A stretch of 64,000 nt of DNA from Gammaproteobacteria bacterium (GCA_965116495.1 OZ220696.1:768001-832000); one strand, 5' to 3'. Numbered from the stretch's first letter, positions 32,230 through 54,400 are shown. A program made the numbers and translations. The notes: a model not told the origin generated them from the letters alone.

Positions 32230-32399
32230 AATTAAAAATTAGGAATTAAGAATTAATGTGCCGCCTGTGGCGGCGGTTTTTCAATGCATCTTATCCCTTC
32301 CGCAAGTTGGATCAAAGCACACGGTTACGTAACATTTGTAATTCCTAATTCCTAATTCCTAATTCCTAATTCGTAATTCCTAATTCGTAATTCCTAATT
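32230..32399. repeat. Heptamer tandem repeats in inverted arrangement
   Basis: Eight TAATTC(C/G) units plus a partial unit at 32339-32399; four degenerate complementary AATTAnn units at 32230-32257; GCCGCC...GGCGGC hairpin between them. Confidence 0.9.
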
Positions 32400-33541
32400 G
32401 TCTCTTTCGCTATGATCAGTTTTTGTATCTCGGAAGCGCCCTCGTAGATGCGCAACGCGCGGATTTCCCGGTAGAGTTCTTCAACCTTTTCACCCCGGGT
32501 TACCCCGCGTCCCCCGAATATCTGAACAGCCTGGTCGATAACCTCCTGGGCCGATTCGGTCGCATACAATTTAGCTATTGCCGCTTCCCGCGTCACGCGC
32601 TCAGCGCCGCTGTCCTTGGCCCAGGCGGCACGGTAAACCAGCAGGGCGCTTGCATCAATCGCTACGGCCATATCGGCGATCTTGCCCTGGATCATCTGCA
32701 TATCGGCAAGTGTCTTGCCGAACAGTCGCCTGGCGCCGGCATGCTTCACTGTTTCATCCAGCGCGCGCCGGGCGAATCCCAGCGCAGCCGCTCCGACCGT
32801 CGGACGAAACACATCCAGCGTGGCCATGGCAATTTTGAAACCCTCACCCGGCCGGGCCAGCAGGTTTGTTTTCGGCACCCTGCAGTCCTCGAACACCAGG
32901 CGCGCCAGTGGGTGGGGAGCGATAGTATCGATCCTTTCGGCCACTACCAGCCCGGGGGCATCAGCATCCACAATGAGGACACTCAGACCCCGCCCCCCCG
33001 TTTCCTCTCCGGTCCTGACAAACACGGTATAATAGTCCGCGATACCACCGTTTGAGATCCAGGTTTTCTCGCCATTGATTACGTAATCCGGACCGTCGGT
33101 TACGGCGGAAGTAGTCAGGGAAGCAACATCCGAGCCGGCGCCGGCTTCAGATAATGCAAAAGCGGCAATTTTAGCGCCACTGCGAACCGCCGGCAGGTAA
33201 TCATTCCTTTGTGCCTGATTGCCGAACAGGGCAATGGCTCCGCTGCCCAGTCCCTGCATGGCGAAGACAAAATCCGCCAGGCCGGAATGGCTCGCCAGGA
33301 TCTCCCGAACAAGACATATTGACCTTACATCCACCGGCTTGACGGAAGCCGGCGCGGGCGCGGCATGGATAAGCCACCCGGCATCAGCTATTTGTTTCAA
33401 TAATACCCTGCAGGCATCATCGATATTATCAGGATATTGCCGGGGCAGGTGCCGGCCTGACCATTCTGCAAGTTCAGCGGCAAGGCGCCTGTGGTCCGCC
33501 AGAAAAAAAGGCCAGTCAAGATAGCTGCGGTCAACCATCAA
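32366..33541 (-). CDS. Acyl-CoA dehydrogenase (abm-cluster type)
   Basis: [40 protein letters not shown]. Confidence 0.92.
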
Positions 33542-34347
33542 TCACCTTCGAATTCAGGTGTTTTCTTATTGATAAAGGCAGTGTAAGCGCGTTGGAAATC
33601 CGCTGTCTGCATACAGATTGCCTGGGCCTGGGCTTCAGCCTCTATTGCCTGTTCCAGCCCCATATTCCATTCCTGACGCAGCATGGTTTTGGTGATACCG
33701 TGGGCGAACGCGGGTCCCCGGAGCAACCGTCCGGCCAACTTTTTCGCTTCATCCAGTAATGTATCCGCTGATACCAGAGAGTTATAAAATCCCCAGCGAT
33801 GACCTTCATCCGCACTCATGGACCGACCGGTGTACAGTAATTCCGCCGCACGGCCCTGGCCTATAATCCGGGGCAGTATGGCACAAGCGCCCATATCACA
33901 ACCGGCCAGACCGACACGGGTAAACAGGAAAGCCGTTTTTGCTTCCGGTGTCGCTATACGCATATCGCTCGCCATGGCGATTGCGGCGCCGGCGCCCACA
34001 CAGATACCGTCCACCGCAGCGATGACAGGTTGCGGGCAGTGGATCATGGCCTTGATGAGATCGCCGGTCATGCGGGTGAATTCCAGCAGTTCTTTCATGT
34101 TCTTTTGAGTCAGGGGGCCTATGATATCGTGTACGTCACCGCCGGAGCAGAAGTTGCCTTCAGCACCGGTAATAATCACGACCCTGACGTCATCTGCAGC
34201 GGCCAGGTGGCGAAAGGTATCGCGCATTTCCGCATAGGAAGAAAAGGTGAGCGGGTTCTTTCTTTCCGGCCGGTTCAGGGTCAGCGTCGCTACACCATCG
34301 GAACAGGACCAGTCAAAATGCTGCGGGATATATCCGGACATGCTCAT
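33538..34347 (-). CDS. Enoyl-CoA hydratase family protein (abm-cluster type)
   Basis: [44 protein letters not shown]. Confidence 0.92.
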
Positions 34348-34389
34348 TGATAATTTCCGTGTATGTCAGTGATAAGGCGATTATGGGTA

Positions 34390-35154
34390 TCACATTACTT
34401 CGCCACCGGCTATCGGGATGGACTGGCCGGTGACGGATTCGCTGCCTGGCAGGCATAACCAGGCTACCGCGGTGGCTACTTCTTCCGGTTCGATAAACCG
34501 GTGTTGCGGGTTAGCCGATTTGAGGCGCGCTTCAGCATCCTCCCGCGCCATGCCCGTCTTGTCCATAATCCTGGTTATTGCCTCCGTAATCAAGTCAGTA
34601 TTGGTATAGCCCGGGCAGATTGCATTGACGGTTATACCGGTCCCTGCCAGTTCCAGCGCCAGGGAACGGGTAAGGCCGATGACGCCATGTTTGGCCGCGC
34701 AATAAGCCGCCACATAAGCATAGCCGGTAAGCCCGGCAGTACTGGCTATATTGATGATACGGCCCCAGTCTGCTTCAAGCATCCCGTCCAGCACCTGGCT
34801 GCTGCAATAAAATACACCATCCAGGTTAACGGCAATCGACTGTTTCCAACTGTTATTGTCGATGCGCGCGAATGGACTGCTGCCGGCCATGCCGGCGTTA
34901 TTTACCAGGATGTCAACAGGACCAAACCGGGCTACAGCTTCTGCAAACCCTGCCACTACGGTTTCTTCATCAGCTACGTCCAGCTGTACAGCGGATGCGC
35001 GACCTAACTGCTCCGCCCTGGAATGTAAAGAACTTTCCGTCCGGCCCATCAGGGTAATCCTGGCCCCCAGCCGGTCCATTTCCGCTGCGATCGCTGCGCC
35101 TATACCCTTGCCACCGCCGGTAACCACCACATGTTTATCGTTGAGAGCATTCAT
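34390..35154 (-). CDS. SDR oxidoreductase (abm-cluster type, 3-hydroxyacyl-CoA dehydrogenase-like)
   Basis: TGGGKGIG, NNAG, YVAAYCAAKHG, C-terminal AGGEVM. Confidence 0.92.
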   Translation of the reverse strand: MNALNDKHVVVTGGGKGIGAAIAAEMDRLGARITLMGRTESSLHSRAEQLGRASAVQLDVADEETVVAGFAEAVARFGPVDILVNNAGMAGSSPFARIDNNSWKQSIAVNLDGVFYCSSQVLDGMLEADWGRIINIASTAGLTGYAYVAAYCAAKHGVIGLTRSLALELAGTGITVNAICPGYTNTDLITEAITRIMDKTGMAREDAEARLKSANPQHRFIEPEEVATAVAWLCLPGSESVTGQSIPIAGGEVM

Positions 35155-35272
35155 ATGACACGGCTATATTACCATAGCCTGATTCCGCTCAGCCCGCCGG
35201 TATTTTTCTATTCAAAAATACATTCACTAATGCTACACTTGCCCAGTTAAATTTGAATACCTGCAAAAAGCC

Positions 35273-37720
35273 ATGGGGAAAGACCTGATTGTTGTAGGCA
35301 ATGGAATGGCGCCCAGCCGCGCTTTGGAAAAACTCAACGAACAGGATCCTGATGCCTACAATGTCACAATTTTCAACGCCGAACCGCGCGTCAGCTATAA
35401 CCGCGTCATGTTATCTCCGGTCCTGTCCGGTGAGGAAGATTTTGAGAAAACCATTATTCACGGGGATGACTGGTATTTTAAGCACGGCTTTATTCTCTAC
35501 CGGGGTTGCCCGGTCACTGAAATAGATCGGGAAGCCAGGACAGTCAAGGCCATTAATGGAATTGCCGAGCCTTATGACAAACTGCTGATTGCAACGGGGT
35601 CATCTCCGGTCAAACTTTCCATTCCTGGAAACGACAAGGAAGGGGTGCTTTCGTACAGAGACCTGGACGATGTGAAAGCCATGCTGAGCGCTGCTGAAAC
35701 CAAGCGGCAGGCGGTGGTGATTGGTGGCGGACTGCTCGGACTCGAGGCGGCTGCAGGACTGCGCAACCGGGGTATGGAAGTGACGGTAGTGCACCGCAAC
35801 CCTACACTAATGGACCGCCAGTTGGATGAGACTGCCGGCCACCTGTTACAGCGCGCAATCGAGTCACTCGGCATCCGGGTGTTGACCGGGAGACATACAA
35901 AAGCAATCACCGGCGACGAGCATGTAAAGGGGGTACTGTTTAAGGACGGTAGTAGTATACAAGCGGATATCGTGATCATGGCGGTGGGGATTCGTCCGAG
36001 TGTATGGTTGGCGGATAACGCCGGGTTGAATGTCAACCGGGGAATCGTTGTCGACGAACATATGCGCACCTCTGATCCCGACATCCTCGCAATCGGCGAG
36101 TGCGCTGAATTCGAAGGGAATGTTTACGGTCTGCTTGCACCACTATACGAAATGGCGAACGTCGCTGCCGCCACTTTACTCGGAGATGAGGAGCAACAAT
36201 TCGAAAATCGGGTGACTGCGGCACAACTAAAGGTAACGGGGATTGATCTCTATTCTGCCGGTGACTTTGCCGACAGCGATAATCGGGAAGAGATTGTTTT
36301 GCGGGACCCGAACCAAGGCGTATACAGACGGCTTGTCCTCGAAGACAACCGTTTGGTTGGGACAGTTCTTTACGGTGATACCTCGTCCATGGGATGGTAC
36401 TTCCAGATGATCAAGGACAGCACGGATATCTCCGGTATCCGTGATTACATGATATTCGGGCCCGGTTTTGCAGAAGGCGCGGCCCAAGACCCGACGGCAG
36501 CTGTTGCGTCCCTGCCGGATGATGCGGAGATCTGCGGATGTAACGGTGTAACAAAAGGCGAGATCAAGCAAGCTGTTGACGCTAACAACCTGACTACGCT
36601 GGAAGAGGTGCGCGCCTGCACCAAGGCATCCGCCTCTTGCGGGTCATGTACCGGTCTGGTGGAACAACTGCTGCTCCTGAGACTTGGCGATTCGTACCAA
36701 CCCGCTGAGGTAAAACCCATATGCGGCTGTACCGATCTGAGTCATTCCGATGTGCGCCGGCTTATCAGCGCGCGCAATATCAAAACCATACCCGATTTGA
36801 TGCAGGAACTGGAATGGAAGAGTTCCGGCGGTTGCGCCAAGTGCAAGCCTGCGCTGAATTACTACCTGCTGGCGACCTGGCCGGGTGAATACGTCGATGA
36901 TAAACAATCCCGTTTCATCAATGAGCGGGTACATGCCAACATTCAGAAGGACGGCACTTATTCCGTCGTACCGCGAATGTGGGGAGGATCTACGTCTTCC
37001 AGCGAATTGCGCGCTATTGCGGACGTGGTTGACAAATTCCATATACCGACAGTCAAGGTAACCGGTGGTCAGCGCATCGATATGCTCGGTATCAAAAAAG
37101 AAGACCTGCCTGCAGTCTGGGCGGACCTGAATAAAGCCGGCCTGGTTTCGGGACATGCCTACGGCAAAGCGGTTCGTACGGTAAAAACCTGTGTCGGCAA
37201 GGAATGGTGCCGCTTTGGCACCCAGGATTCCACCGGGCTGGGTATCCGGCTGGAAAAATTCCTGTGGGGTTCATGGACGCCTGCCAAGGTAAAGATGGCG
37301 GTCTCGGGATGTCCGAGAAACTGTGCTGAAGCCACTTGTAAGGATGTGGGCATCGTTTGCGTGGAATCCGGGTATGATGTCCACTTCGCCGGCGCTGCCG
37401 GCATGGATGTCAGGGAGACCGAATTGCTGGGCCATGTCGACAACGAAGATGACGCCATAGAAATAGTGGCTGCCGTTATACAGCTATACCGGGAGCAGGG
37501 ACATTATCTTGAAAGGATCTACAAGTGGGCCAGGCGTGTCGGCGTAGATTCGATCCGGGATGCGGTTGTGGATGATGCAGCCAATCGCAAATCACTGTGC
37601 GCAAGGTTTGTCCACTCACAGAAATTTCATCAGATCGATCCTTGGGAAGAACGGGTAAAAGGCCATGATCAGCATGAATTCGCCCCGATCAAGGAACTCA
37701 GCACTCTGGAGTTGGCTTGA
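35273..37720 (+). CDS. nirB: NAD(P)H nitrite reductase large subunit
   Basis: GNGMA, GGGLLGLEAA, two BFD-like Cys clusters, ANIQKDGTYSVVPR, KTCVG..WC, SGCPRNC. Confidence 0.96.
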   Translation: MGKDLIVVGNGMAPSRALEKLNEQDPDAYNVTIFNAEPRVSYNRVMLSPVLSGEEDFEKTIIHGDDWYFKHGFILYRGCPVTEIDREARTVKAINGIAEPYDKLLIATGSSPVKLSIPGNDKEGVLSYRDLDDVKAMLSAAETKRQAVVIGGGLLGLEAAAGLRNRGMEVTVVHRNPTLMDRQLDETAGHLLQRAIESLGIRVLTGRHTKAITGDEHVKGVLFKDGSSIQADIVIMAVGIRPSVWLADNAGLNVNRGIVVDEHMRTSDPDILAIGECAEFEGNVYGLLAPLYEMANVAAATLLGDEEQQFENRVTAAQLKVTGIDLYSAGDFADSDNREEIVLRDPNQGVYRRLVLEDNRLVGTVLYGDTSSMGWYFQMIKDSTDISGIRDYMIFGPGFAEGAAQDPTAAVASLPDDAEICGCNGVTKGEIKQAVDANNLTTLEEVRACTKASASCGSCTGLVEQLLLLRLGDSYQPAEVKPICGCTDLSHSDVRRLISARNIKTIPDLMQELEWKSSGGCAKCKPALNYYLLATWPGEYVDDKQSRFINERVHANIQKDGTYSVVPRMWGGSTSSSELRAIADVVDKFHIPTVKVTGGQRIDMLGIKKEDLPAVWADLNKAGLVSGHAYGKAVRTVKTCVGKEWCRFGTQDSTGLGIRLEKFLWGSWTPAKVKMAVSGCPRNCAEATCKDVGIVCVESGYDVHFAGAAGMDVRETELLGHVDNEDDAIEIVAAVIQLYREQGHYLERIYKWARRVGVDSIRDAVVDDAANRKSLCARFVHSQKFHQIDPWEERVKGHDQHEFAPIKELSTLELA

Positions 37721-38073
37721 TGTCATCTGATTGCTGGACAACTATAGGAAATGTGGATGATATACCGGTTGCGGGCGCGCGGGTGGTCATCTCCCCCGGC
37801 TGCAGGATAGCGGTATTTCGAACCGAGGACAATCAAGTCTTCGCGCTGGAAGATCGATGCCCGCATCGCAAAGGTCCTATCAGCCAGGGGATCGTCCACG
37901 GCAAGAAGGTAACATGTCCCCTGCACAACCTGGTTATTGACCTGGACAGTGGAAATACGCAGGAATCCGGCATCGTACCGGTATGCACCATATCCACCCG
38001 GGTCGGAGAGAACGGAGAAGTGCTGCTGAATATGGATGACATCCGGGCCAGACTGGAGTCCGGGACCAGATAA
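37720..38073 (+). CDS. nirD: Nitrite reductase small subunit (Rieske type)
   Basis: IAVFRT, CPH.KGP.SQGIVHG..VTCPLH; TGATG coupling to nirB. Confidence 0.93.
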   Translation: MSSDCWTTIGNVDDIPVAGARVVISPGCRIAVFRTEDNQVFALEDRCPHRKGPISQGIVHGKKVTCPLHNLVIDLDSGNTQESGIVPVCTISTRVGENGEVLLNMDDIRARLESGTR

Positions 38074-38108
38074 CACGCATAGAACGTCCGCCTGGTGCAG
38101 TGGTTGAA

Positions 38109-39266
38109 TCAGCGGTTGGGCGTATGACCGCAAACCATGCCGGCGATGATCATCTTCTGTATGTTCGAGGTCCCTTCGACTATTTGCAGGGACTTGGCGT
38201 CGCGATAGAACCGTTCGGCCGGGTATTCCGTGGAATAACCGTAGGACCCGAAGATTTTCATACACTCGTTTGCCGCGTGCACCGCTGCTTCGGACGCAGC
38301 AAGTTTGGCCATGGAGGTTTCATACTGGTTGGGCCTGCCCTGATCCTTTAACCAAGCGGCCTTGTATACCAGCAGTTGCGCAGCCTGGTGTTCCACCGCC
38401 ATGTCGGCAATCTGGGACTGTATCATCTGGTGGCGTGAAATGGGTTTGCCGAATTGCTTACGCTCGTTTGCATAGTCAACGGCCAGTTGTAGTGCGCCAC
38501 CGGCCACACCCAGGGCGCCGGCGGCACAACCGATGCGGGTATTGTTCAACTGCCACATGCACATCTTGAAGCCGTTGTTAAGTTCGCCGAGCAGGGCGTT
38601 TTTGGGAACACGTGCGCCTGCAAAGATAAATTCACCGGTCGGGGAGCAATGCAGACCCAGCTTGGTGTCGATGGGCCGGGCAGTACAGCCTTCCAGGTTC
38701 TTGGGTTCGATGATAAAGCAACTGATGCCCTTGTTGCCCTTGTCCCGGTCCGTATAGGCGTACAACAGGCCGGCGTCGCCTATATGGGCGTTGGAGATCC
38801 ATATCTTGCTGCCATGCAGTTCATAATGGTCGCCCCTGTCGATGGCGTGGGTCTTCATGTTGGCAACATCGGAACCGGTATCCGGCTCAGTCATGGCAAA
38901 GAACCCTATTCGGGCGCCATTGATCCAGCCGGGAATGTATTTCTCCTGTTGTTCCTGTGTGCCGAATTCAGCTACTGACAGGGGAGCGCCGAGGTTCTGC
39001 ATGTTGAAGGGCAGTCGCCATGAGGCCGATACCTGGCTAATCTGCTCCGCCATGAGCACGGATTCCAGGAAGCCCATCCCGTTTCCGTTCAATTCTTCCG
39101 GCAACACACATGAAAAAAAACCGAGTTCGCCCATTTCTGCCACGCGTTCCAGCTTGAATTCATGGTTTTTTTCTTCCTGTTCGAGTGTCGGCGCAATTTC
39201 TTCCAGGGCAAATCGCCGGGCCGTATCCTGTACCAGACGCTGCTCTTCGGTTAATTCAAAAAACAT
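38109..39266 (-). CDS. Glutaryl-CoA dehydrogenase, non-decarboxylating type
   Basis: ACAD fold with RxxxN (WRLPFN) carboxylate-binding motif, YAYTD, YGYSTEYP, and Val rather than Tyr before the catalytic Glu (IVEGT); last gene of the decarboxylase operon. Confidence 0.85.
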   Translation of the reverse strand: MFFELTEEQRLVQDTARRFALEEIAPTLEQEEKNHEFKLERVAEMGELGFFSCVLPEELNGNGMGFLESVLMAEQISQVSASWRLPFNMQNLGAPLSVAEFGTQEQQEKYIPGWINGARIGFFAMTEPDTGSDVANMKTHAIDRGDHYELHGSKIWISNAHIGDAGLLYAYTDRDKGNKGISCFIIEPKNLEGCTARPIDTKLGLHCSPTGEFIFAGARVPKNALLGELNNGFKMCMWQLNNTRIGCAAGALGVAGGALQLAVDYANERKQFGKPISRHQMIQSQIADMAVEHQAAQLLVYKAAWLKDQGRPNQYETSMAKLAASEAAVHAANECMKIFGSYGYSTEYPAERFYRDAKSLQIVEGTSNIQKMIIAGMVCGHTPNR

Positions 39267-39279: not shown

Positions 39280-39501
39280 TTATGCAGACTCGATAGACAT
39301 GAGTGGCTGATCCTCCTCCACTTCGTCGCCTTCCTTGACCAGGATTTGTTTCACCTTGCCGTCACAGGGAGCATAGACCGGCGTTTCCATTTTCAAAGCC
39401 TCGATGATAAGCACTTCGTCATCCTCTTCGAGGACTTCGTTCAGTGTTGCCGTAATTTTCCAGATTGTTCCCGACAGGGGCGCCAATACCTCTTCCGCCA
39501 T
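39280..39501 (-). CDS. Stand-alone biotin carboxyl carrier subunit (GcdC-like)
   Basis: 73 aa; APLSG, EALKME biotinyl-lysine motif, VKEGDEV. Confidence 0.92.
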   Translation of the reverse strand: MAEEVLAPLSGTIWKITATLNEVLEEDDEVLIIEALKMETPVYAPCDGKVKQILVKEGDEVEEDQPLMSIESA

Positions 39502-39517: not shown

Positions 39518-40621
39518 TTATTGCAAGATTGTTAGAAATATACCGGCAGCAATGACGGTACCGATTACACCGGCGATATTGGGGCCCATGGCAACCATGA
39601 GCAGGTAATTCTTTTTATCCGCCTCAGCCCCAATTTTCTGAACCACCCGGGCCGCCATCGGCACGGCAGAGACCCCGGCCGCGCCGACCAGGGGATTGAT
39701 CTTGTCCGGGATAAAAATATTCAGCAGTTTGGCCAGCAGTATGCCGCTTGCCGTACTGATCATGAATGCGAACATGCCGAGGAAGAAAATCAGTATGACG
39801 TCACTACGTAAAAAACTGTCTGCGCTCATGGTTGCGCCTATACTGACGCCAAGGAATATGGTTGCTATATTCATCAGGGAATTCTGGGCGGCATCAGTCA
39901 AACGATCGACCACCTTGGATTCCCGGAACAGGTTGCCCAGCATGAACATGGACACCAGGGGCGCAGAAGCAGGTACCATCAGGATAATCACCATGGCGGC
40001 TATTATGGGAAACAGCAGCTTCTCCCTCGGACTGATCTTACGGCCTTTGCGCATGCGGATTTTTCGCTCATTTTCCGTCGTCAACAAACGCATGATAGGG
40101 GGCTGGATGATAGGCACCAGCGCCATGTAGGAATAGGCGGCAACCGCGCAGGCACCGAGCAGGTGCGGCGCCAGTTTCGCCGCCAGAAAGATAGTCGTGG
40201 GTCCGTCCGCCCCGCCAATAATGCTGATGGTGGCGGCATCTTCCAGGCTGAAACCCATCCAGCAAGCCAGAAAAAACGTAAGGTAAACACCCACCTGCGC
40301 GCCTGCGCCCAGAAAGATGAGTAATGGTTGCGAGAGTAACGGGCCGAAATCGGTCAGCGCGCCAAGACCCAGGAAGATCAGGGGGGGAATGATGCGCCAT
40401 TCGATCCCGTGGTGATAGAAGCGCCAGAGCAATCCGTCTCCGGGCTCCATCAGCCCGGTCAACGGCAGGTTGGCAAGGAGAATGCCGAAACCTATGGGCA
40501 GCAGCAACAATGGTTCATACTGCCTGGTGACAGCCAGGTAGAGCAGGGTCAGTCCAATCAGCCACATCAGCAACATTTCGGGCGTGACGGAAAAAATCCC
40601 CATGTTTTCTATAAACGCCAT
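39518..40621 (-). CDS. Na+-translocating decarboxylase beta subunit (GcdB/OadB)
   Basis: EPLLLLPIGFG, GALTDFGP, IIGGADGPT, AYSYMALVP, GVSAVPMAARV, MGPNIAGVIG. Confidence 0.97.
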   Translation of the reverse strand: MAFIENMGIFSVTPEMLLMWLIGLTLLYLAVTRQYEPLLLLPIGFGILLANLPLTGLMEPGDGLLWRFYHHGIEWRIIPPLIFLGLGALTDFGPLLSQPLLIFLGAGAQVGVYLTFFLACWMGFSLEDAATISIIGGADGPTTIFLAAKLAPHLLGACAVAAYSYMALVPIIQPPIMRLLTTENERKIRMRKGRKISPREKLLFPIIAAMVIILMVPASAPLVSMFMLGNLFRESKVVDRLTDAAQNSLMNIATIFLGVSIGATMSADSFLRSDVILIFFLGMFAFMISTASGILLAKLLNIFIPDKINPLVGAAGVSAVPMAARVVQKIGAEADKKNYLLMVAMGPNIAGVIGTVIAAGIFLTILQ

Positions 40622-42506: not shown

Positions 42507-42612
42507 CAGGCTTATTTCCTCAAAAAGAATCGAATGATGTCAAAACATAAGTGCCGGGTGAAGGCTTCACCCTTGCGGGTTGAATAGTGCAACACACTAT
42601 ACCACATCACAC

Positions 42613-42785
42613 AATTTGGGACACCCATAAATTGTGCGCTATCTGTAACGCAATCTGGGACACTCGCAAATTTATGTTGTCCTGATTTTCTAATTTATGG
42701 ATGTCCCAAATTAAGAAATATTCTAATTTATGGATGTCCCAAACTAAGAAATATTCTAATTTATGGGTGTCCCAAATTAAGAAAT
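42613..42785. repeat. Three tandem 33-bp palindromic units facing two inverted 21-bp cores
   Basis: TTCTAATTTATGG(A/G)TGTCCCAAA(T/C)TAAGAAAT(A) at 42688, 42721 and 42754; AATTTGGGACACCCATAAATT (42613-42633) is the exact reverse complement of the third core; a degenerate copy lies at 42652-42672. Confidence 0.92.
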
Positions 42786-42899
42786 CGAACGAGGCTGATG
42801 TCATTGATTCCAATTGGTGGTTTAATCTGTGCAATAGCGGCTATAATGTACTGGCAGTCCTGTGGCTGCCATAATAATCAATCAGATGGGATATCGTTC

Positions 42900-46583: not shown

Positions 46584-47906
46584 ATGACAAAATACACCGA
46601 TGAACAACTGGCCGGTTTGATCAGAAAAGATTGCGTCCATAGAAACGTCTATACCGATCCTGAAATCTTTGATCTTGAGATGGAACGCATCTGGACCAAA
46701 GCCTGGATCTACGTGGGCCATGACAGTCAGGTAAAACAGCCGGGCGACTATTTCGCCACCAGTATCGGCAGGCAGCCTGTCATCATGACCCGGCACAGCG
46801 ACGGAAAGGTTTACGTTCTGTTCAACCGCTGCAGCCACAAGGGCGCCCAGGTGGTAGGTGAGAGTTGCGGCCACATGCAGCAGTTACGCTGCAGCTACCA
46901 TGGTTACGTATTCGACACCGACGGCACCTTGATACATATCCCCCGGGAAGAAGCCTACGACGGCGCCGGGTTCGGCAAAGGCAAGGCGGAATCCAATATG
47001 CAGCGGGTACCGCGGGTGGACAGTTACCACGGCCTGGTATTCGCCAGCCTGTCTGCACAAGGTCCTGATCTGAAAACCTGGTTAAGTGGCGCCGCGGCAT
47101 CCATTGATAACCTGGTGGAACGCTCACCGGAAGGGCGTATTGAAATTGCCGGGGGCTGTTTCCGTTACCTGCATGATTCCAACTGGAAGATGTTTGTGGA
47201 AAACCTGAATGACGCCATGCACCCGATGGTCGTTCACCAGTCGTCCAGCGGTACTGCCAAACGGGTATTTGATGAACGCCTGAAAGAGGGGGACCCGGTA
47301 CCGTTCGAACTTGAGATGCTGGCGCCGTTCACCAACAACTACGAGTTCTTTGAAAAGATGGGGCTCACTGCCTGGGACAACGGTCACAGTGTCACCGGAG
47401 GCAAGTTCAGTATCCATTCAGCCTATTCACCCATTCCCGGCTACATGGATTCCCTGGTCGAAAAATATGGCGAGCAGAAGGCGCGGGAAATCCTAGCGGT
47501 AAACCGCCACAACACCGTGGTCTATCCCAGCTTTACCCTGAAGGGCGCAATCACCTCGATACGCGTGGTCAAACCTGTGGCCGTAGACAGAACCGTTATC
47601 GAATCCTGGGTGTTCAGACAGGTAGGAGCGCCGGAAGAACTGTTTCGACGTTCCATCACTTACTGCAACCTCATCAATTCCCATGCCAACCTGGTAGGCC
47701 CCGATGACTACGAAGCCTATCACCGCCTGCAATATGGCCTGCAGACACAGGATGATAACGAATGGGTAAGCCAGCACCGCTACCTGGACCAGGAAGAGCT
47801 GGAGGAAAATGGGACCAAGCATGCAGCAGGGACGTCCGATATGGTCTTTCGCCACCAGTATCAGACCTGGAAAAACTATATGGTCGACACCCGGCATGCA
47901 CAATGA
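46584..47906 (+). CDS. Rieske ring-hydroxylating oxygenase alpha subunit (IadD-like)
   Basis: NRCSH...CSYH Rieske motif; NWKMFVENLNDAMHPMVVH mononuclear Fe motif; GGGAG RBS before ATG 46584. Confidence 0.93.
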   Translation: MTKYTDEQLAGLIRKDCVHRNVYTDPEIFDLEMERIWTKAWIYVGHDSQVKQPGDYFATSIGRQPVIMTRHSDGKVYVLFNRCSHKGAQVVGESCGHMQQLRCSYHGYVFDTDGTLIHIPREEAYDGAGFGKGKAESNMQRVPRVDSYHGLVFASLSAQGPDLKTWLSGAAASIDNLVERSPEGRIEIAGGCFRYLHDSNWKMFVENLNDAMHPMVVHQSSSGTAKRVFDERLKEGDPVPFELEMLAPFTNNYEFFEKMGLTAWDNGHSVTGGKFSIHSAYSPIPGYMDSLVEKYGEQKAREILAVNRHNTVVYPSFTLKGAITSIRVVKPVAVDRTVIESWVFRQVGAPEELFRRSITYCNLINSHANLVGPDDYEAYHRLQYGLQTQDDNEWVSQHRYLDQEELEENGTKHAAGTSDMVFRHQYQTWKNYMVDTRHAQ

Positions 47907-48396: not shown

Positions 48397-48696
48397 ATGC
48401 CGCCAGGACGTACTAAATCCATCACCTCCGCCGCCTATCTGAAATTCGGGCACACCCACAGCGGATTGTCGCGGCGGCTGCTCATTGTGCTGATCGCCCT
48501 GGTGCTGGGGTTTGATTTTCTCTGTGTTTACGCAGCTGAATTCATGGGTGCGCCCCTGTCAGAAGGCAGTGTCGTGTCAATCGGCATCGCTATTGCACTG
48601 CTCATTATCCTGTTCATTCTTACTGCTGCCCTGTACTACGTCCGGCGGATCAATACGGCATACCTCGAAATGCATAAATCCCCGGATGAAGACTGA
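48397..48696 (+). CDS. DUF485/YjcH-like small membrane partner of the symporter
   Basis: Two TM segments and C-terminal YYVRRIN; directly upstream of an ActP-like gene. Confidence 0.8.
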   Translation: MPPGRTKSITSAAYLKFGHTHSGLSRRLLIVLIALVLGFDFLCVYAAEFMGAPLSEGSVVSIGIAIALLIILFILTAALYYVRRINTAYLEMHKSPDED

Positions 48697-50335
48697 ATCA
48701 TACCGTATCCGACTCCTTGTCGTACCGGCGTTGTTGTTGCTGATGGCAACAGCTCCGGTCACGGCTGGGGCAGGGGAACAGGAACTTAACTACCCCGCCA
48801 TAACCTCATTCCTACTGTTCATCATAGCTACCCTGTTTGTTACCGCCTATGCGGCCCGCCGTACCCGCTCCAGGCAGGACTTCTATGTCGCGGCTAACAC
48901 GATAGGCGGTTTACAGAACGGCATTGCGATTTCCGGCGACTACATGTCAGCCGCCTCGTTCCTCGGCCTGGTCGGCCTGCTCTTCCTCGGTGGTTTCGAC
49001 ACCATCTATTTCATCGTCAACCTGATCCTGAGTTGGGCGGTTGTGCTGATGCTTATCGCCGAAAAACTGCGCAACCTGGGGTCTTATACCTTTGCGGACG
49101 CGGTCTCCGTCAGGTTGGCGTCCAGGCCAATCCGGGTGCTGGCGGCAACGGGAACCCTGGCCGTTGCCATACCCTACCTGCTGGCACAGATGGTTGCCGC
49201 CGGCACCCTGGTTGAATCCCTGTTTGGTCTCGATTATATCCAGGGCGTGCTGATCGTCGGTGTGTTGATGACGGTTTATGTGACGTTCGGCGGCATGATC
49301 GCAACAACCTGGGTCCAGATAATCAAGGCGGTACTGCTGGTCGGCGGCGGCACCATACTTGCCGTCGGCATATTGTTTACCTTTGATTTTAACGTCAACG
49401 AACTGGCCGGCCTGGCGGTAAACAAACACCCGGAGGGACTGGCCATCATGCAACCGGGCCTGCTTTACCCGGATATCGTCACCGTCATCTCCCTGAGCCT
49501 GGCGTTTATCGGCGGCACCGCCGGATTACCCCATGTCATGATGCGCTTTTTCACTGTACCGGACGGGGTGCAGGCAAGACGTTCCGCAGCCTGGGCCATG
49601 GGCATCATCAGTTATTTCCAGTTCGTAGTACTGATTATCGGTTTAGGCGCTATCGTGTTATTGACGGACAACCCGGAATTTACCAGTGGCGGACTCGAGG
49701 TTATCGGCGGCAGCAATATGGCGGCGATCCACCTGTCCCAGGTCGTCGGCGGTAATATTTTCATGGGTTTCATCTGTGCGGTTGCGTTCGCTACCATTCT
49801 CGCCGTCGTTTCCGGGCTGATGTTATCCGCCGCAACCACCATATCCCATGACCTGTATGCCGGGGTGATCCGCAAGGGGTCATGCACCGATGCGGAAGAA
49901 TTACGCGTTTCCAGACTGACAGTGGTCATGTTAAGTATCGTCGGCATCCTGCTGGCGGTCTTGTTCAAGGGACAGAATGTCGCGGTACTCGCCACCTTGC
50001 CCCTGGTGATCGCAGCCAGCGCCAATTTTCCGGTGCTACTCCTGTTCATGTACTGGAGAGGATTTACCACCCGGGGAGCATTATTCGGCGGTTATACCGG
50101 ATTGTTACTGGCCGTCTCCCTGATTATCCTGGGCCCGACCGTATGGGTAAACGTGCTGGGCCATGAGGCACCGGTATTCCCCTATGCGTATCCGACGCTG
50201 TTTTCCATGGGCGCGTGCTTCCTGTTTGCCTGGTTTTTCTCAATTACGGATAATAGTCCGCGAGCCGCTGCTGAAGCGGATGCTTTTGACGAGCAATTGC
50301 GGCGCTCGCAGATCGGAGAACTGTCCCATGGGTAA
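48686..50335 (+). CDS. Cation/solute symporter, ActP-like (SSS family)
   Basis: QNGIAISGDYMSAASFLG, GGMIATTWVQIIKA, GTAGLPHVMMRFFTVP, AVAFATILAVVSGL. Confidence 0.93.
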   Translation: MKTESYRIRLLVVPALLLLMATAPVTAGAGEQELNYPAITSFLLFIIATLFVTAYAARRTRSRQDFYVAANTIGGLQNGIAISGDYMSAASFLGLVGLLFLGGFDTIYFIVNLILSWAVVLMLIAEKLRNLGSYTFADAVSVRLASRPIRVLAATGTLAVAIPYLLAQMVAAGTLVESLFGLDYIQGVLIVGVLMTVYVTFGGMIATTWVQIIKAVLLVGGGTILAVGILFTFDFNVNELAGLAVNKHPEGLAIMQPGLLYPDIVTVISLSLAFIGGTAGLPHVMMRFFTVPDGVQARRSAAWAMGIISYFQFVVLIIGLGAIVLLTDNPEFTSGGLEVIGGSNMAAIHLSQVVGGNIFMGFICAVAFATILAVVSGLMLSAATTISHDLYAGVIRKGSCTDAEELRVSRLTVVMLSIVGILLAVLFKGQNVAVLATLPLVIAASANFPVLLLFMYWRGFTTRGALFGGYTGLLLAVSLIILGPTVWVNVLGHEAPVFPYAYPTLFSMGACFLFAWFFSITDNSPRAAAEADAFDEQLRRSQIGELSHG

Positions 50336-50371
50336 ACACAGGCTGCCCAGTCATACTGCCGGAAGAATTGT

Positions 50372-52015
50372 ATGGAAATGACTACCGTGTACGACAAATT
50401 TCTGGAAACCGGGCGGAACGTCCCGGCACAGGCCTTCCTGCACATCCCGCACCAGGCAGCCCGGGGGTACCATCAAGGCCCGGTTGACTATACCTACAAC
50501 CAGGCTCGCCAGGCCGCCGCTTCACTGAGCGAACGCTATGCTGCCGCAGGCTACGGGCACGGCCACAGAATTGCCGTCATGCTGGACAATCGCGCCGATT
50601 TTTTCCTGCACTTTCTGGCCCTGAACAAACTTGGAGTGAGCGTCGTGCCGGTCAATTCCGGCTTCCTTCCCGGTGAAATCAACTACGTCATCAGCCACAG
50701 TGATGCCTGTCTTGTCCTGTGCCTGCCCCAATATCGCGGGAAAGTGGAGGCCGCTTTGTCCGCTCAAGGTACAGCCACTCCAATCACGGACACCTCTGCA
50801 ACGACGGAATTACCACCTTGCAGGCAGGCAATTACGGACGGAACGCCCGACCGGCATTCTGAAGTAGCCGTACTGTATACCTCCGGCACAACGGGTAAAC
50901 CCAAAGGCTGTATGCTGAACAATGAATATTTTACCTGCATGGGCGAGTGGTACGCGAATATAGACGGCTATTGCCGGTTGACGTATGGAGAGGAGCGGAT
51001 GCTGACACCGCTGCCGCTGGTCCACATGAATGCATTATGCTCCATGATGGCCATGATCATGAGTGGCGGTTGCATAATCCAGCTGGACCGTTTCCATGCT
51101 TCCAACTGGTGGGATACGGTACGCTCCTCCGGGGCTACCTGTCTGCACTACCTGGGAGTAATCCCGGCAATTCTGCTGAACCAGCCGGAAACGGAACATG
51201 ACAACCTGGGGACACAGGTCAAGTTCGGTTTCGGCGCCGGGGTTGATCCGAAACACCTGCAACGATTTGAACGGCGTTTTGGTTTTCCCCTGGTGGAGGG
51301 TTGGGCCATGACGGAGACCGGCACTCACGTCTGTATCACCGCCAATAAGGAGCCGCGCCATATCGGGACACGCTGCATCGGCAGGGCGCCGGAGACCATC
51401 GAGTATCGCCTCGTGGATGAACAGGGGAAAGATGTCGGACCGGGTGAACCGGGAGAGTTGTTAATTCGCGCCAGTGGGGAAAACCCGCGCAAGGGTTTCT
51501 TTTCCGGCTACTATAAAAACCCTGAAGAAACTGCCAGGGTATGGGAAGGGGGCTATTTCCATACCGGCGATGTGGTGCGCATCAGCGAGGACGGTTCTTT
51601 TCATTTTGTCGACCGCCGTAAAAACATCATCCGGCGCAGTGGCGAAAATATCGCTGCCGTTGAAGTGGAGAACATCCTGTTCCAGCATCCGGTCATCGCC
51701 AATTGCGCGGTGACGCCTGTTTACGATGAACTACGCGGCGAAGAAGTAGGCGTTTGCATTATCCTGAGTGAAACCGTACGGGAACAGTATGCCGGCAATG
51801 ATGCCGTGGCAGATGCCTTGTTCGCTTTCTGCCTTGAACAGTTGATTTACTACAAGGTTCCGGCTTATTACCTGTTCGTAACCGAGTTGCCCATGACCGT
51901 GTCGCAGAAATTGCAACGCGGTGAAATCAAAACCCTTGCCAACAGGCTGGTGGAAGAGGGCAGATGTATCGACCTGAGAAAGCGCAAGCGCAGGAATAAA
52001 AATGCAGCCCTATAA
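50372..52015 (+). CDS. AMP-forming acyl-CoA ligase
   Basis: YTSGTTGKPKG, WAMTE, FHTGD, RRSGENI. Confidence 0.93.
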   Translation: MEMTTVYDKFLETGRNVPAQAFLHIPHQAARGYHQGPVDYTYNQARQAAASLSERYAAAGYGHGHRIAVMLDNRADFFLHFLALNKLGVSVVPVNSGFLPGEINYVISHSDACLVLCLPQYRGKVEAALSAQGTATPITDTSATTELPPCRQAITDGTPDRHSEVAVLYTSGTTGKPKGCMLNNEYFTCMGEWYANIDGYCRLTYGEERMLTPLPLVHMNALCSMMAMIMSGGCIIQLDRFHASNWWDTVRSSGATCLHYLGVIPAILLNQPETEHDNLGTQVKFGFGAGVDPKHLQRFERRFGFPLVEGWAMTETGTHVCITANKEPRHIGTRCIGRAPETIEYRLVDEQGKDVGPGEPGELLIRASGENPRKGFFSGYYKNPEETARVWEGGYFHTGDVVRISEDGSFHFVDRRKNIIRRSGENIAAVEVENILFQHPVIANCAVTPVYDELRGEEVGVCIILSETVREQYAGNDAVADALFAFCLEQLIYYKVPAYYLFVTELPMTVSQKLQRGEIKTLANRLVEEGRCIDLRKRKRRNKNAAL

Positions 52016-53165
52016 CGATGTTGCGCTGGTTGCCGCGACCAGTATTCCCTATGTGCGGCGCAGCGAGCGAAGCGCTGCCTGGTTTATAGGCACCGTCTTC
52101 GCAAGAATGATCGAGACCGCGGGATTAAACAGGAATGAGATTGACGGCCTGGCCATAGCCAGCTTTACCCTGGCGCCCGACAGCGTTGTCAGCATGACCG
52201 AATATCTCGATATCTCGCCCGGTTGGCTGGAACAGATCCCGATGGGCGGCGCCAGCGGACCCGTGGCCGTCCGGCGCGCGGCCCGTGCGGTACAAGCGGG
52301 CGATGCCGGGGTCGTGGCATGTATCGGCGCCGATACGGCTTCTGCCAGCACCTTTAGGGACCTGGTCAGCAATTTCAGTCGGTTCTCAACCGATGCCGTA
52401 TTCCCCTACGGCGCAGGCGGACCGAATACCGTGTTTGCCATGATTACCCGCCACTACATGGAGAAATACGGGGCGGAACGGGAAGATTTCGGCCGTGTCT
52501 GCATTGCCCAGAGGGAAAATGCGCTGGCCGCGGGCACTGCCGTCTTCAAAACACCGTTATCGATGGAGGACTACCTCGATGCACGTTCCATCAGCGAACC
52601 CCTGCACCTGTTCGATTGCGTCATGCCCGTCGCCGGGGCGGACGGTTTCCTGGTCATGACGGTTGCCCGGGCCCGGTCGCTGGGCCTGCCTTATGCCAGG
52701 ATACTGGCTGCGGGAGAGAAGCATAACGCCTGGTCCGGTGACGACGTTCACTTTCGCGGCGGCTGGAGCCTGTACCGTGACCGGATGTACGAGCAGGCTG
52801 ACCTCGGCCCCGGTGATATTGATTTTCTGCAGACATACGACGACTACCCGGTCATTTCCATGATCCAGATGGAAGACCTGGGCTTTTGTGAAAAGGGCGG
52901 GGCGGCCGAATTTGTCCGCACTCACCCGTTGACCTGGAACGGCGGAGGCCTGCCGCATAATACCTGCGGCGGTCAACTATCCGCGGGGCAGGCAGGCGCT
53001 GCCGGCGGTTTCCTGGGTACGGTCGAAGCGATCCGCCAGTTGACTGAAACCGGTTTGTCCAACCAGGTCGCCGGCGCAATGGCGGGTATGGCAAGCGGCT
53101 ATGGAATGGTCAATTACGATCACTGTTTATGCACCAGTGCCGTAATACTCGGGAGGGGAGAATGA
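52002..53165 (+). CDS. SCP-x-type thiolase family protein
   Basis: MGGASG, DCVMP, TYDDYP, HNTCGGQLSAGQAG; paired with an OB-fold gene. Confidence 0.9.
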   Translation: MQPYNDVALVAATSIPYVRRSERSAAWFIGTVFARMIETAGLNRNEIDGLAIASFTLAPDSVVSMTEYLDISPGWLEQIPMGGASGPVAVRRAARAVQAGDAGVVACIGADTASASTFRDLVSNFSRFSTDAVFPYGAGGPNTVFAMITRHYMEKYGAEREDFGRVCIAQRENALAAGTAVFKTPLSMEDYLDARSISEPLHLFDCVMPVAGADGFLVMTVARARSLGLPYARILAAGEKHNAWSGDDVHFRGGWSLYRDRMYEQADLGPGDIDFLQTYDDYPVISMIQMEDLGFCEKGGAAEFVRTHPLTWNGGGLPHNTCGGQLSAGQAGAAGGFLGTVEAIRQLTETGLSNQVAGAMAGMASGYGMVNYDHCLCTSAVILGRGE

Positions 53166-53617
53166 TGAGCGGCCAAGCGGGCCCACCCGTTGCACGCTCC
53201 GCCCTTTGGCAGCAAGTCAACCAGGCAGCAAAAGAGGAGGCTTTCAAGCTGCAGGTCTGCAGCAAGTGTGACAGGGTTCAGTATCCGCCCCGGGAATTCT
53301 GCAGTTATTGCCTGGTTGGCGAATTGTCATGGGAAACTGTCAGCCCGATGGGAAAAGTGCTGTCCTGGACCACAACCCATGCCAGCAGCAACCGGTTTTT
53401 CAAGGGTATACTACCTTTTCACGTCGGCATGATTAAACTGGATTGCGGCCCGGTTCTGATCGCATACCTGGCTACGGCATCATTACACACGGGGAGCCGG
53501 GTTCAGGTCACAGGCATGCCGGACAAGTCCGGCCAGGCCGTTTTCCTTGCCGGACCGCCGGGTACGGATCCGCGGGTTGAATTCAGTCACATACTGATTA
53601 AAAATGTTGATAAATAG
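53162..53617 (+). CDS. Zn-ribbon/OB-fold (DUF35-like) thiolase partner
   Basis: QVCSKC..VQYPPREFCSYC; ATGA overlap with the thiolase. Confidence 0.9.
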   Translation: MMSGQAGPPVARSALWQQVNQAAKEEAFKLQVCSKCDRVQYPPREFCSYCLVGELSWETVSPMGKVLSWTTTHASSNRFFKGILPFHVGMIKLDCGPVLIAYLATASLHTGSRVQVTGMPDKSGQAVFLAGPPGTDPRVEFSHILIKNVDK

Positions 53618-53619
53618 TA

Positions 53620-53646
53620 CTGGATTCCTGCCTCCGCAGGAATGAC
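53620..53646. repeat. REP-like palindrome (GGATTCC...GGAATGAC class)
   Basis: CTGGATTCCTGCCTCCGCAGGAATGAC; ATTCCTGC/GCAGGAAT stem. Confidence 0.75.
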
Positions 53647-53668
53647 GGATAATTCGATGAGGTGAGAC

Positions 53669-54400
53669 ATGGCGAAAAAAAATAAGGTGGTTGTAATAAC
53701 GGGCGGCAACAGGGGTATAGGCGCCGATATTACCCGGCGTTTTCTTGACAGCGGTTACCTGGTCGTCAATATCTCCCGGCAGACCCCTGAATTCTCCCAC
53801 GAGCGCCTGGTCAACTACACGGCGGACCTGGCAGATCCGCAGGCAACCATGGACGTCGGCATGGAGATAGCAGGTAACCATACGGTAACGGACTTCATTC
53901 ACAACGCCGGGGTGATCCGTCCGGATTTGCTGGAAGACGTGAAGCTGGAAGACCTGGACTACCTGACCCAGTTGCACCTGGGCAGCGCCATCACGCTTGC
54001 GCAACAGTTTATTCCCGCCATGCGCAGCGCGCAGTACGGCCGCATCATCCTCATATCATCCCGCGGCGTGCTGGGACTCGTAACCCGGACGAATTACGCC
54101 GCAACCAAAGCCGGTCAGATCGGTATCACGCGCACCTGGGCGCTGGAACTGGCAAAAGACGGGATCACTGTAAACTGCGTCGCGCCGGGTCCCATCGTGA
54201 CAGACATGTTCCATGAACTGGTCCCGGAAGACAGCGAGCAGAAGTCCAGGATTGCAGGGAGCGTCCCTGTCAAACGCCTGGGCACACCCGAAGACATCGG
54301 CCGTGTAGTCAAGTTTTTATGCGAGGAAGAGAGCGGTTTCATCACGGGACAGACCTGGTACATCTGCGGCGGCGCCAGCCTGGGATCTCTGGCTTTGTGA
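53669..54400 (+). CDS. SDR oxidoreductase
   Basis: TGGNRGIG, HNAGVIR, RTNYAATK, ICGGASLG. Confidence 0.92.
   Translation: MAKKNKVVVITGGNRGIGADITRRFLDSGYLVVNISRQTPEFSHERLVNYTADLADPQATMDVGMEIAGNHTVTDFIHNAGVIRPDLLEDVKLEDLDYLTQLHLGSAITLAQQFIPAMRSAQYGRIILISSRGVLGLVTRTNYAATKAGQIGITRTWALELAKDGITVNCVAPGPIVTDMFHELVPEDSEQKSRIAGSVPVKRLGTPEDIGRVVKFLCEEESGFITGQTWYICGGASLGSLAL

What the first reader, a model, noticed from the sequence alone, without database searches (positions are those of the whole stretch)
32366..54400. Mosaic supercluster: abm gene set split around nirBD and a Na+-pumping glutaryl-CoA module
Seen: SDR-ECH-ACAD (-, 32.4-35.2 kb) and RidA-MarR-AbmA (+, 42.9-46.5 kb) point away from each other, with nirBD and the decarboxylase operon between them and repeats at two junctions. 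Known: such genes normally cluster together, as in the Azoarcus evansii aerobic 2-aminobenzoate genes, whose lower pathway is poorly resolved. Inference: indole compound to anthraniloyl-CoA, O2-dependent dearomatisation, beta-oxidation, and possibly glutaryl-CoA to crotonyl-CoA with Na+ export. I know of no described cluster combining these, but the linkage could be coincidental.
Basis: inference. Interest (0 to 1): 0.72.

Follow-up and report, generated by a model that had tools for sequence, protein, structure and literature searches.

The report
Auxin-breakdown cluster with anaerobe-type sodium pump
An uncultured bacterium with oxygen-respiration genes keeps, back to back and in the same order as most of its relatives, genes predicted to break down indole-acetate-type compounds and a predicted sodium-pumping glutaryl-CoA module of the kind described for strict anaerobes, but the two are likely good neighbours rather than one continuous pathway.

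Summary
The genes are there as described, the assembly is sound, and the layout is shared across the genus. Three corrections. (1) nirBD is a passenger: it sits at this spot in 2 of 22 congeners; in 12 the glutaryl-CoA dehydrogenase gene runs straight (10-132 bp) into SDR-ECH-ACAD. (2) The two repeats are genome-wide elements (46 and 58 sites), not junction scars. (3) The right arm is an iad-type indole-3-acetate cluster (iadD, E, F, G, J, part of H); its Rieske enzyme keeps all 10 IadD pocket and iron residues. The Gcd module is complete and is the only glutaryl-CoA route found: the usual decarboxylating GcdH is missing in 23 of 23 genus genomes, although this one encodes an aa3 oxidase and no class I benzoyl-CoA reductase. 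Against a single pathway: abmA is missing in 8 of 22 congeners that keep gcdA, neighbouring housekeeping genes are almost as syntenic, and the AbmA product would not give glutaryl-CoA by plain beta-oxidation. The scan has already noted this Gcd block in other aerobes. Verdict: a new combination of known modules; direct coupling about 25% likely.

The parts
32230..32413 (.). Heptamer-array hairpin (dispersed repeat); the ACAD stop codon lies inside it
   Evidence: 46 clusters in the genome; variable between congeners
32366..33541 (-). abm-type acyl-CoA dehydrogenase
   Evidence: 59% to the ACAD of an annotated abm cluster
33538..34347 (-). abm-type enoyl-CoA hydratase/hydrolase
   Evidence: PRK08258 485 bits, cut-off 330; 66-70% to abm ECHs
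34390..35154 (-). abmB-type SDR
   Evidence: 54-55% to AbmB
35273..37720 (+). nirB, NADH nitrite reductase large subunit (passenger)
   Evidence: TIGR02374 923 bits, cut-off 578; found in 8 of 22 congeners, at this spot in 2
37717..38073 (+). nirD small subunit (passenger)
   Evidence: TIGR02378 81 bits, cut-off 75
38109..39266 (-). Non-decarboxylating glutaryl-CoA dehydrogenase (predicted)
   Evidence: best PDB match 3mpi, E 1e-103; R84 and V363-E364 align with R87 and V366-E367, invariant in 44 of 44 homologues; NF045552 437 bits, under its cut-off 470
39280..39501 (-). gcdC biotin carrier
   Evidence: PF00364; EA(L/M)KME in 20 of 20 sequences
39518..40621 (-). gcdB Na+-translocating beta subunit
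   Evidence: TIGR01109 487 bits, cut-off 191; single copy in the genome
40621..40749 (-). gcdD membrane anchor (42 aa)
   Evidence: PF04277 24.7 bits, under its cut-off 27; syntenic in 19 of 22 congeners
40773..42506 (-). gcdA glutaconyl-CoA carboxyltransferase
   Evidence: PDB 1pix E 1e-222, 3gf3 E 3e-214, next family 1e-40
42507..42899 (.). Divergent intergenic region; a TATAAT-type hexamer on each side recurs in congeners
   Evidence: read by eye; the consensus scan found no excess of promoters
42613..42785 (.). Inverted-arm element with three 33-bp copies (dispersed repeat, not seen at this site in congeners)
   Evidence: (58 clusters)
42900..43298 (+). RidA-family enamine/imine deaminase of abm type
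   Evidence: 61% to abm RidA
43298..43753 (+). MarR regulator
   Evidence: 36% to abm MarR, and another gene of the genome is closer (45%); no match to the solved IadR structures at E 1e-8
44139..46523 (+). AbmA-type 2-aminobenzoyl-CoA monooxygenase/reductase
   Evidence: PRK08255 1040 bits, under its cut-off 1078; 49% to an annotated anthraniloyl-CoA monooxygenase
46584..47906 (+). iadD-type Rieske oxygenase alpha subunit
   Evidence: PDB 7yls/9o71 E 2e-140, next 1e-43; 10 of 10 pocket and iron residues kept (residues from PMC10374108)
47896..48396 (+). iadE-type beta subunit
   Evidence: 39% to iad-cluster beta subunits
48397..50335 (+). DUF485 + Na+/solute symporter (ActP-like)
50372..52015 (+). 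iadF-type CoA ligase
   Evidence: 46-48% to iad-cluster ligases, 26% to the abm ligase
52002..53165 (+). iadG-type thiolase-fold protein, likely a retro-aldolase
   Evidence: 57% to an iad-cluster thiolase; best PDB matches are the aldolases Sal 9myr and Ltp2 6ok1; GGASG, YDDY, GGQLSxGQ motifs
53162..53617 (+). DUF35 zinc-ribbon/OB protein = N-terminal part of IadH, without its SDR domain
   Evidence: 37-40% to residues 23-146 of the 415-418 aa protein
53669..54400 (+). iadJ-type SDR
   Evidence: 51-52% to the last SDR of iad clusters

Best explanation
The region holds two back-to-back gene runs: the rightward one likely takes an indole-3-acetate-type compound to anthraniloyl-CoA and dearomatises it with O2, and the leftward one likely oxidises glutaryl-CoA and pumps Na+ as the cell's general C5-dicarboxylate exit, mostly fed from other substrates. 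Shown: gene identities, order, conservation, absence of a decarboxylating GcdH. Inferred steps: the symporter imports the acid; IadDE oxygenates it and IadJ gives dioxindole-3-acetate (as measured in Variovorax); IadF makes the CoA ester; the thiolase-fold protein with its DUF35 partner would cleave it by retro-aldol to isatin + acetyl-CoA; a cyclase, a fused IorAB and an anthranilate-CoA ligase encoded elsewhere would lead on to anthraniloyl-CoA; AbmA hydroxylates and reduces the ring; RidA would release the nitrogen; ECH, SDR and ACAD would open and oxidise the ring to an unknown product. Separately the dehydrogenase would make glutaconyl-CoA, and GcdABCD would decarboxylate it to crotonyl-CoA with Na+ export; the gradient would serve symporters or the NhaA antiporter, since the ATP synthase c subunit looks H+-type and no NqrA was found. 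SDR-ECH-ACAD are likely read from the gcd promoter in most congeners; here nirBD interrupts that unit.
For: Identities. Pocket residues 10 of 10 in all 23 genus orthologues. Decarboxylating GcdH (control protein matches 3gnc) in 0 of 23 genus genomes, but in 9 of 18 other genomes searched, among them a sister genus that lacks gcdA. gcdA 22 of 22, iadD 22 of 22, ECH 17 of 22, anthranilate-type ligase 16 of 22, IorAB 15 of 22, abmA 14 of 22. G009, G011, G013 and G017 lack abmA, ECH and the ligase, yet keep gcdA and the dehydrogenase. G006 holds its abm genes as one block about 430 kb from gcd, and G005 holds SDR-ECH-ACAD away from gcd. After abmA loss (G001 v G019) dN/dS is 0.35 ECH, 0.23 SDR, 0.25 RidA, 0.12 ACAD against 0.05-0.09 for gcd genes (small counts). 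iad and abm genes are also adjacent, with no gcd among the annotated genes of the 21 kb shown, on an Azospirillum thermophilum plasmid. Aerobic signs: aa3 oxidase over cut-off, BoxB/BoxC, 27 Rieske alpha-like genes; HGD-D family in 0 of 23; no NarG over cut-off.
Against: The dehydrogenase-to-SDR gap of 10-132 bp in 12 congeners is what co-transcription of one pathway would look like, and three Ramlibacter-labelled loci also put RidA (two of them abmA too) next to gcdB/gcdA (L100, L101, L103). I did not identify the alternative glutaryl-CoA source: the 3-hydroxyanthranilate route (HAO in 20 of 23) has a complete decarboxylating meta-cleavage exit here. The iad set is incomplete: no close IadC reductase, no IadH SDR domain, IadI only at 33% elsewhere; 7 of 22 congeners lack IorAB, so the true substrate or exit may differ. 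The thiolase-fold protein has Asp where Sal needs Cys304 and Ltp2 has His. Dehydrogenase and AbmA fall slightly under their NCBIfam cut-offs. Anaerobic growth is not excluded (two TorA/BisC-like reductases). No expression data.
Confidence: 0.55

Rival explanations
1. One continuous pathway: indole compound to anthraniloyl-CoA, O2-dependent dearomatisation, beta-oxidation to glutaryl-CoA, then Na+-pumping decarboxylation.
For: gcd genes and SDR-ECH-ACAD form one strand run with gaps of 10-132 bp in 12 congeners; intact abmA lies within 1.7 kb of gcdA in 10 of 22; a second juxtaposition in Ramlibacter-labelled loci whose GcdA sits on another branch; the product of the abm lower pathway is described only as 'beta-oxidation' (PMC4539516, passages), so it is open.
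Against: abmA missing in 8 of 22 congeners that keep gcdA. By chemical reasoning (mine, untested) ring opening of the 2,5-dioxygenated C7 ester gives 4-oxo/4-hydroxypimelyl-CoA, whose C5 fragment would be 2-oxo- or 2-hydroxyglutaryl-CoA; the dehydratase family that could turn the latter into glutaconyl-CoA is in 0 of 23 genomes. Other abm clusters have no gcd gene in the stretches seen (L161, L163, L188). Of 59 non-genus gcdA loci mapped, 2 show abmA within reach (many loci are short).
Confidence: 0.25
2. The neighbourhood is inherited gene order with no functional or regulatory tie: gcd landed once between abm genes in the genus ancestor and stayed.
For: The housekeeping gene mtaB on the far side stays within 16.5 kb of gcdA in 16 of 22 congeners, against 18 of 22 for iadD; the module itself is broken up in G006 and G011; no conserved operator seen between the arms.
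Against: gcdA stays beside iadDE in the four congeners that lost the mtaB link (G005, G010, G011, G013) and in three outside loci with other flanks (L085, L087, L111).
Confidence: 0.15
3. The Rieske arm acts on another substrate (anthranilate, a substituted indole or another heterocycle), so the 'IAA' label is wrong though the chemistry is similar.
For: 27 Rieske alpha-like genes in the genome, two paralogues differing at only 1-2 pocket positions; IadC, IadI and the IadH SDR domain are not in the cluster; some congeners with iadD lack IorAB, the ligase and abmA.
Against: 10 of 10 residues match Variovorax IadD, one more than in the alphaproteobacterial iad clusters, and D, E, F, G, H-part and J are collinear with those clusters; anthranilate dioxygenase models score far under cut-off.
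Confidence: 0.12
4. Chimeric assembly.
For: Repeats at two places; one single-base error in the nearby mtaB gene.
Against: Mismatch-free contigs bridge the joints; same order in many congeners.
Confidence: 0.01

Closest known systems
Non-decarboxylating glutaryl-CoA dehydrogenase of Desulfococcus multivorans (PDB 3mpi) with Na+-translocating glutaconyl-CoA decarboxylase (GcdA of Acidaminococcus fermentans, PDB 1pix; organism recalled)
   Same: All four Gcd subunits and the dehydrogenase; Arg and Val-Glu active-site positions kept.
   Different: Host encodes aa3 oxidase and many oxygenases and no HGD-D-family reductase; the proteins belong to a Gamma/Betaproteobacteria branch (support 1.0, midpoint-rooted) apart from the Desulfobacterota sequences. 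PMC5852087 (passages) describes this pair as the obligate-anaerobe solution.
iad auxin-degradation operon of Variovorax paradoxus CL14 and iad-like clusters of Labrenzia and Sulfitobacter plasmids
   Same: iadD, E, F, G, J and the DUF35 part of iadH, collinear; pocket residues identical.
   Different: No iadC, iadI, IadH SDR domain or IadR in the cluster; Na+/solute symporter instead of ABC/TRAP; iorAB fused and elsewhere; abmA directly upstream.
abm 2-aminobenzoyl-CoA cluster of Azoarcus evansii (Schuehle et al. 2001; seen only through PMC4539516) and annotated abm clusters (L161)
   Same: AbmA, SDR, ECH, ACAD, RidA orthologues at 49-66%.
   Different: Split over two divergent arms; ligase 2.7 Mb away; no thioesterase match; gcd genes lead the SDR-ECH-ACAD run.
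iad + abm cluster on Azospirillum thermophilum plasmid NZ_CP029358.1 (L163)
   Same: iorAB/iadCDEFJ directly followed by abmA-SDR-ECH-ACAD-RidA: the same upper-to-lower coupling.
   Different: One strand, with IadC and IorAB, no thiolase-fold gene in the stretch and no gcd among the annotated genes.
Steroid side-chain retro-aldolases Sal (9myr) and Ltp2 (6ok1) with DUF35 partners
   Same: Thiolase fold, no N-terminal catalytic Cys, catalytic Tyr and both Gln positions of Sal kept, adjacent DUF35 gene.
   Different: YDDY instead of YDCY or YDHF; substrate would be dioxindole-3-acetyl-CoA, untested.

Membership tests
Na+-translocating glutaconyl-CoA decarboxylase | GcdA-type carboxyltransferase | tested here: met
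   1pix E 1e-222 against 1e-40 for other carboxyltransferases
Na+-translocating glutaconyl-CoA decarboxylase | Beta subunit, biotin carrier and anchor encoded with it | tested here: met
   anchor is slightly under the Pfam cut-off but syntenic in 19 of 22
Na+-translocating glutaconyl-CoA decarboxylase | Na+-dependent decarboxylation and transport | not testable with these tools
   needs membranes or purified complex
Non-decarboxylating glutaryl-CoA dehydrogenase | Closest to 3mpi; Arg87 and Val366-Glu367 (role of these residues recalled from Wischgoll et al. 2010, not read) | tested here: met
   decarboxylating controls read Tyr-Glu at that place
Non-decarboxylating glutaryl-CoA dehydrogenase | NCBIfam NF045552 cut-off | tested here: not met
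   437 of 470 bits: a sister clade, not a member of that model
iad operon | IadDE with IAA pocket residues | tested here: met
iad operon | Complete iadC-J set in one locus | tested here: not met
   iadC, iadI and the IadH SDR domain missing from the cluster
iad operon | iorAB (iadAB) marker genes in the locus | tested here: not met
   fused orthologue (60%/49%) lies at C1:1349327-1353088, outside the locus
iad operon | IAA converted to anthranilate | not testable with these tools
   needs enzyme or culture assay
abm cluster | AbmA plus SDR, ECH, ACAD, RidA orthologues | tested here: met
   best matches in both directions against L161 and L163; AbmA 1040 of 1078 bits
abm cluster | 2-aminobenzoate-CoA ligase in the cluster | tested here: not met
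   orthologue (53%) at C1:3538723-3540354; the cluster's ligase is IadF-type
Sal/Ltp2 retro-aldolases | Tyr base and DUF35 partner; Cys304 (Sal) or His + second Tyr (Ltp2) | tested here: inconclusive
   Tyr, Gln positions and partner present; the acid residue differs
Anaerobic benzoyl-CoA pathway as the glutaryl-CoA source | Benzoyl-CoA reductase | tested here: not met
   PF06050 in 0 of 23; class II checked only with one recalled motif, no hit

The most novel reading that the evidence does not exclude
In this lineage the unresolved 2-aminobenzoyl-CoA lower pathway ends in glutaryl-/glutaconyl-CoA, so an O2-dependent route from auxin-type indoles is wired into an anaerobe-type Na+ pump: an aerobic aromatic pathway that conserves decarboxylation energy, and the first genetic pointer to the product of the abm SDR-ECH-ACAD enzymes.
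Probability: 0.22. Interest if true: 0.72.

Novelty: new variant of a known kind. Interest (0 to 1): 0.43.

Why it matters
Two points stand even without direct coupling. A whole genus with aerobic respiratory genes has only the 'strict anaerobe' glutaryl-CoA route (GcdA in 23 of 23 here, in 1 of 399 other gammaproteobacterial genomes sampled), which loosens the use of this enzyme pair as an anaerobe marker and suggests energy thrift in an aerobe. And the iad + abm pairing gives a full candidate route from IAA to ring opening, with a cheap test: the IadG/DUF35 pair, annotated as a ketothiolase in the 2025 Variovorax preprint, looks like a retro-aldolase that would release isatin. If the coupling were real it would name the product of a pathway left open since 2001.

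Tried and rejected
nirBD as part of the system, or NirD as ferredoxin for IadDE: nirB found in 8 of 22 congeners that all keep iadD; at this spot in G014 and G016, beside SDR but away from gcd in G005, elsewhere in G002, G020, G022, unplaced in G008 and G021. Whether this spot is ancestral or a repeated arrival is not settled by the trees. Repeats as junction scars: genome-wide. Recent transfer from sulfate reducers: GcdA and dehydrogenase group with uncultured Gamma/Betaproteobacteria (no outgroup, no clade test; L082, L088, L126 left out as duplicates, L062-L079 not mapped as they repeat genus members). 3-hydroxyanthranilate to 2-oxoadipate as the link: HAO and kynureninase are present but so is a full dmp exit. 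Promoter/terminator scan: counts equal to shuffles. Hairpin upstream of gcdA: z -1.2. Search for iadD in 151 genomes of the family of G046: nothing, threshold 1e-150 too strict, uninformative. No RNA holder listed. Habitat: one holder is labelled sponge metagenome but gave only short matched pieces, so no habitat claim. Motif searches used recalled patterns; misses there are weak. Literature: searches showed no paper on this combination; Schuehle 2001 and Wischgoll 2009 were not held. No complex or structure prediction was run.


Full report
Setting. The window is G000:C1:768001-832000 of a single-contig 4.34 Mb genome, 99.5% complete. The closest titled records are uncultured Gammaproteobacteria MAGs. 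Twenty-two congener genomes were available and all were searched.

Observation. The abm-type SDR, ECH, ACAD, RidA and AbmA match an annotated abm cluster at 49-66%. Between them lie nirBD and gcdA-gcdD-gcdB-gcdC plus an acyl-CoA dehydrogenase. Short-read contigs of runs X2 and X3 tile 32371-50900 without mismatch and bridge the joints (same study as the best holders), so the assembly is sound.

Repeats and nirBD. The heptamer array at 32.2-32.4 kb has 46 clusters in the genome, the inverted-arm element at 42.6-42.8 kb has 58; both vary between congeners at these sites, and neither flanks nirBD. nirB was found in 8 of 22 congeners and between the dehydrogenase and the SDR in 2. In 12 congeners the dehydrogenase stop lies 10-132 bp before the SDR start on the same strand. 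The basic layout is therefore two divergent runs, gcdADBC-dehydrogenase-SDR-ECH-ACAD leftward and RidA-MarR-abmA-iad genes rightward, with nirBD as a passenger that interrupts the left run here. Co-transcription is inferred from spacing only.

The glutaryl-CoA module. GcdA matches 1pix and 3gf3 far better than other carboxyltransferases. The dehydrogenase's best solved relative is 3mpi; its Arg84 and Val363-Glu364 align with Arg87 and Val366-Glu367 and are invariant in 44 of 44 homologues, while decarboxylating controls read Tyr-Glu; the meaning of these residues is recalled. It scores 437 against a 470 cut-off. A verified decarboxylating GcdH found a match in 0 of 23 genus genomes and in 9 of 18 others, including a sister genus without gcdA. 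GcdA occurred in 1 of 399 other class-level genomes scored. The genome encodes an aa3 oxidase, BoxBC, catechol 2,3-dioxygenase and 27 Rieske alpha-like genes; no HGD-D-family protein was found in 23 genomes and no NarG over cut-off; two TorA/BisC-like reductases leave some anaerobic respiration open. PMC5852087 (passages) assigns this enzyme pair to obligate anaerobes. RnfC and NhaA are present, NqrA was not found, and the c subunit looks H+-type by a recalled signature. G017 and G044 keep gcdA, gcdC and the dehydrogenase but no beta subunit was found in them, like the pump-less case described in PMC2996986 (passages).

The right arm. The Rieske alpha subunit's best solved relatives are Variovorax IadD (7yls, 9o71); the 10 pocket and iron residues listed in PMC10374108 (passages) are kept in all 23 genus orthologues. 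The downstream ligase, thiolase-fold protein, DUF35 protein and SDR match iadF, iadG, the N-terminal part of iadH and iadJ of plasmid clusters from Labrenzia and Sulfitobacter; I named those clusters by gene order against Table 2 of PMC12852158 (passages). The Variovorax route to anthranilate is from bioRxiv 10.1101/2025.10.25.684584 (parts 1-2 of 9 and a term search) and PMC9613470 (passages). IadC, IadI and the IadH SDR domain are not in the cluster; a fused IorAB with an adjacent cyclase, and an abm-type ligase, lie elsewhere. The cyclase did not match a solved isatin hydrolase. The thiolase-fold protein lacks the N-terminal Cys, keeps Sal's Tyr and Gln positions and has a DUF35 neighbour (PMC12329534 passages), so retro-aldol release of isatin is my preferred, untested, reading; its acid residue differs from both Sal and Ltp2. 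An Azospirillum plasmid couples iad and abm genes on one strand, so that pairing is not unique.

Is it one pathway? For: the tight left run; intact abmA within 1.7 kb of gcdA in 10 of 22 congeners; gcdA beside iadD in 18 of 22 (the other four end at contig breaks), including the four that lost the housekeeping flank, and in L085, L087, L111; abm genes beside gcd in Ramlibacter-labelled loci. Against: abmA is found in 14 of 22, ECH in 17, the ligase in 16, while gcdA and iadD are in 22; G006 and G005 have moved abm genes away from gcd; mtaB is nearly as syntenic (16 of 22), so genus-level order proves little; constraint on ECH, SDR and RidA looks looser after abmA loss, on small counts and uneven dS; and the 2,5-dioxygenated ring would by my reasoning yield a C5 fragment oxidised at C2, with no dehydratase found to fix that. 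The abm lower pathway is described only as beta-oxidation (PMC4539516 and PMC3534580, passages). I did not find what feeds glutaryl-CoA in abm-free congeners; the 3-hydroxyanthranilate route has its own exit.

Novelty. Each module is known. Paper searches (open-access library only, supplements not read; Schuehle 2001 and Wischgoll 2009 not held) showed no description of the combination. Earlier notes of this scan already report the same Gcd block in an aerobic acidobacterium and in a betaproteobacterium, unchecked by me except that betaproteobacterial loci with both dehydrogenase types appear.

Verdict. Real, conserved, not chimeric; a new variant combining known modules. Best reading 0.55, single continuous pathway 0.25. 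Interest 0.43.

Noticed in passing
window:31185: mtaB (30926-32220, -) is frameshifted in the window; three runs show one extra base here and congeners are intact, so it is an assembly error.
   Followed up: yes
window:54759-63937 and L058:244-13478: Downstream block: second CoA ligase, NRAMP-like transporter, hydrolase, hydantoinase/oxoprolinase pair, LLM oxidoreductase, xanthine-oxidase-family Mo enzyme, TonB receptor, amine dehydrogenase heavy and light chains, an IadD paralogue (50%) and an OYE. It resembles by gene type (recalled) the O2-independent iaa route and tryptamine oxidation; patchy in congeners.
   Followed up: partly
L142:1520-4529: Complete Cu-membrane monooxygenase operon (amo/pmo-type C, A, B over NCBIfam cut-offs) a few kb from boxBC and an atypical heme-copper oxidase.
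   Followed up: no
G000 genome: About 23 hydantoinase/oxoprolinase alpha-like genes and 27 Rieske alpha-like genes: an unusual expansion; lactam openers could be a source of C5 acids.
   Followed up: no
window:42536-42554: Inverted repeat upstream of gcdA that is unique in this genome and recurs in five congeners (G001, G003 variant, G007, G014, G019); possible operator; folding not significant.
   Followed up: partly
window:43780-43986 and 54514-54744: Small orphan ORFs (68 and 76 aa) in intergenic gaps; the first is in 5 congeners and widens the MarR-abmA gap from about 100 to about 385 bp.
   Followed up: no
window:46525-46545: TGCGTTATAAT motif before iadD, also kept in G006 and G011 where the abm genes are gone from this site: iadD likely has its own promoter.
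   Followed up: partly
L049 (G017) and L111 (G044): gcdA-gcdC-dehydrogenase without beta subunit or anchor; no OAD_beta gene found in either genome: possible soluble, non-pumping derivative.
   Followed up: partly
L154:1328-5871: Fused IorAB directly behind a cyclase gene, the pair conserved in congeners that have IorAB: candidate isatinate to anthraniloyl-CoA step.
   Followed up: partly
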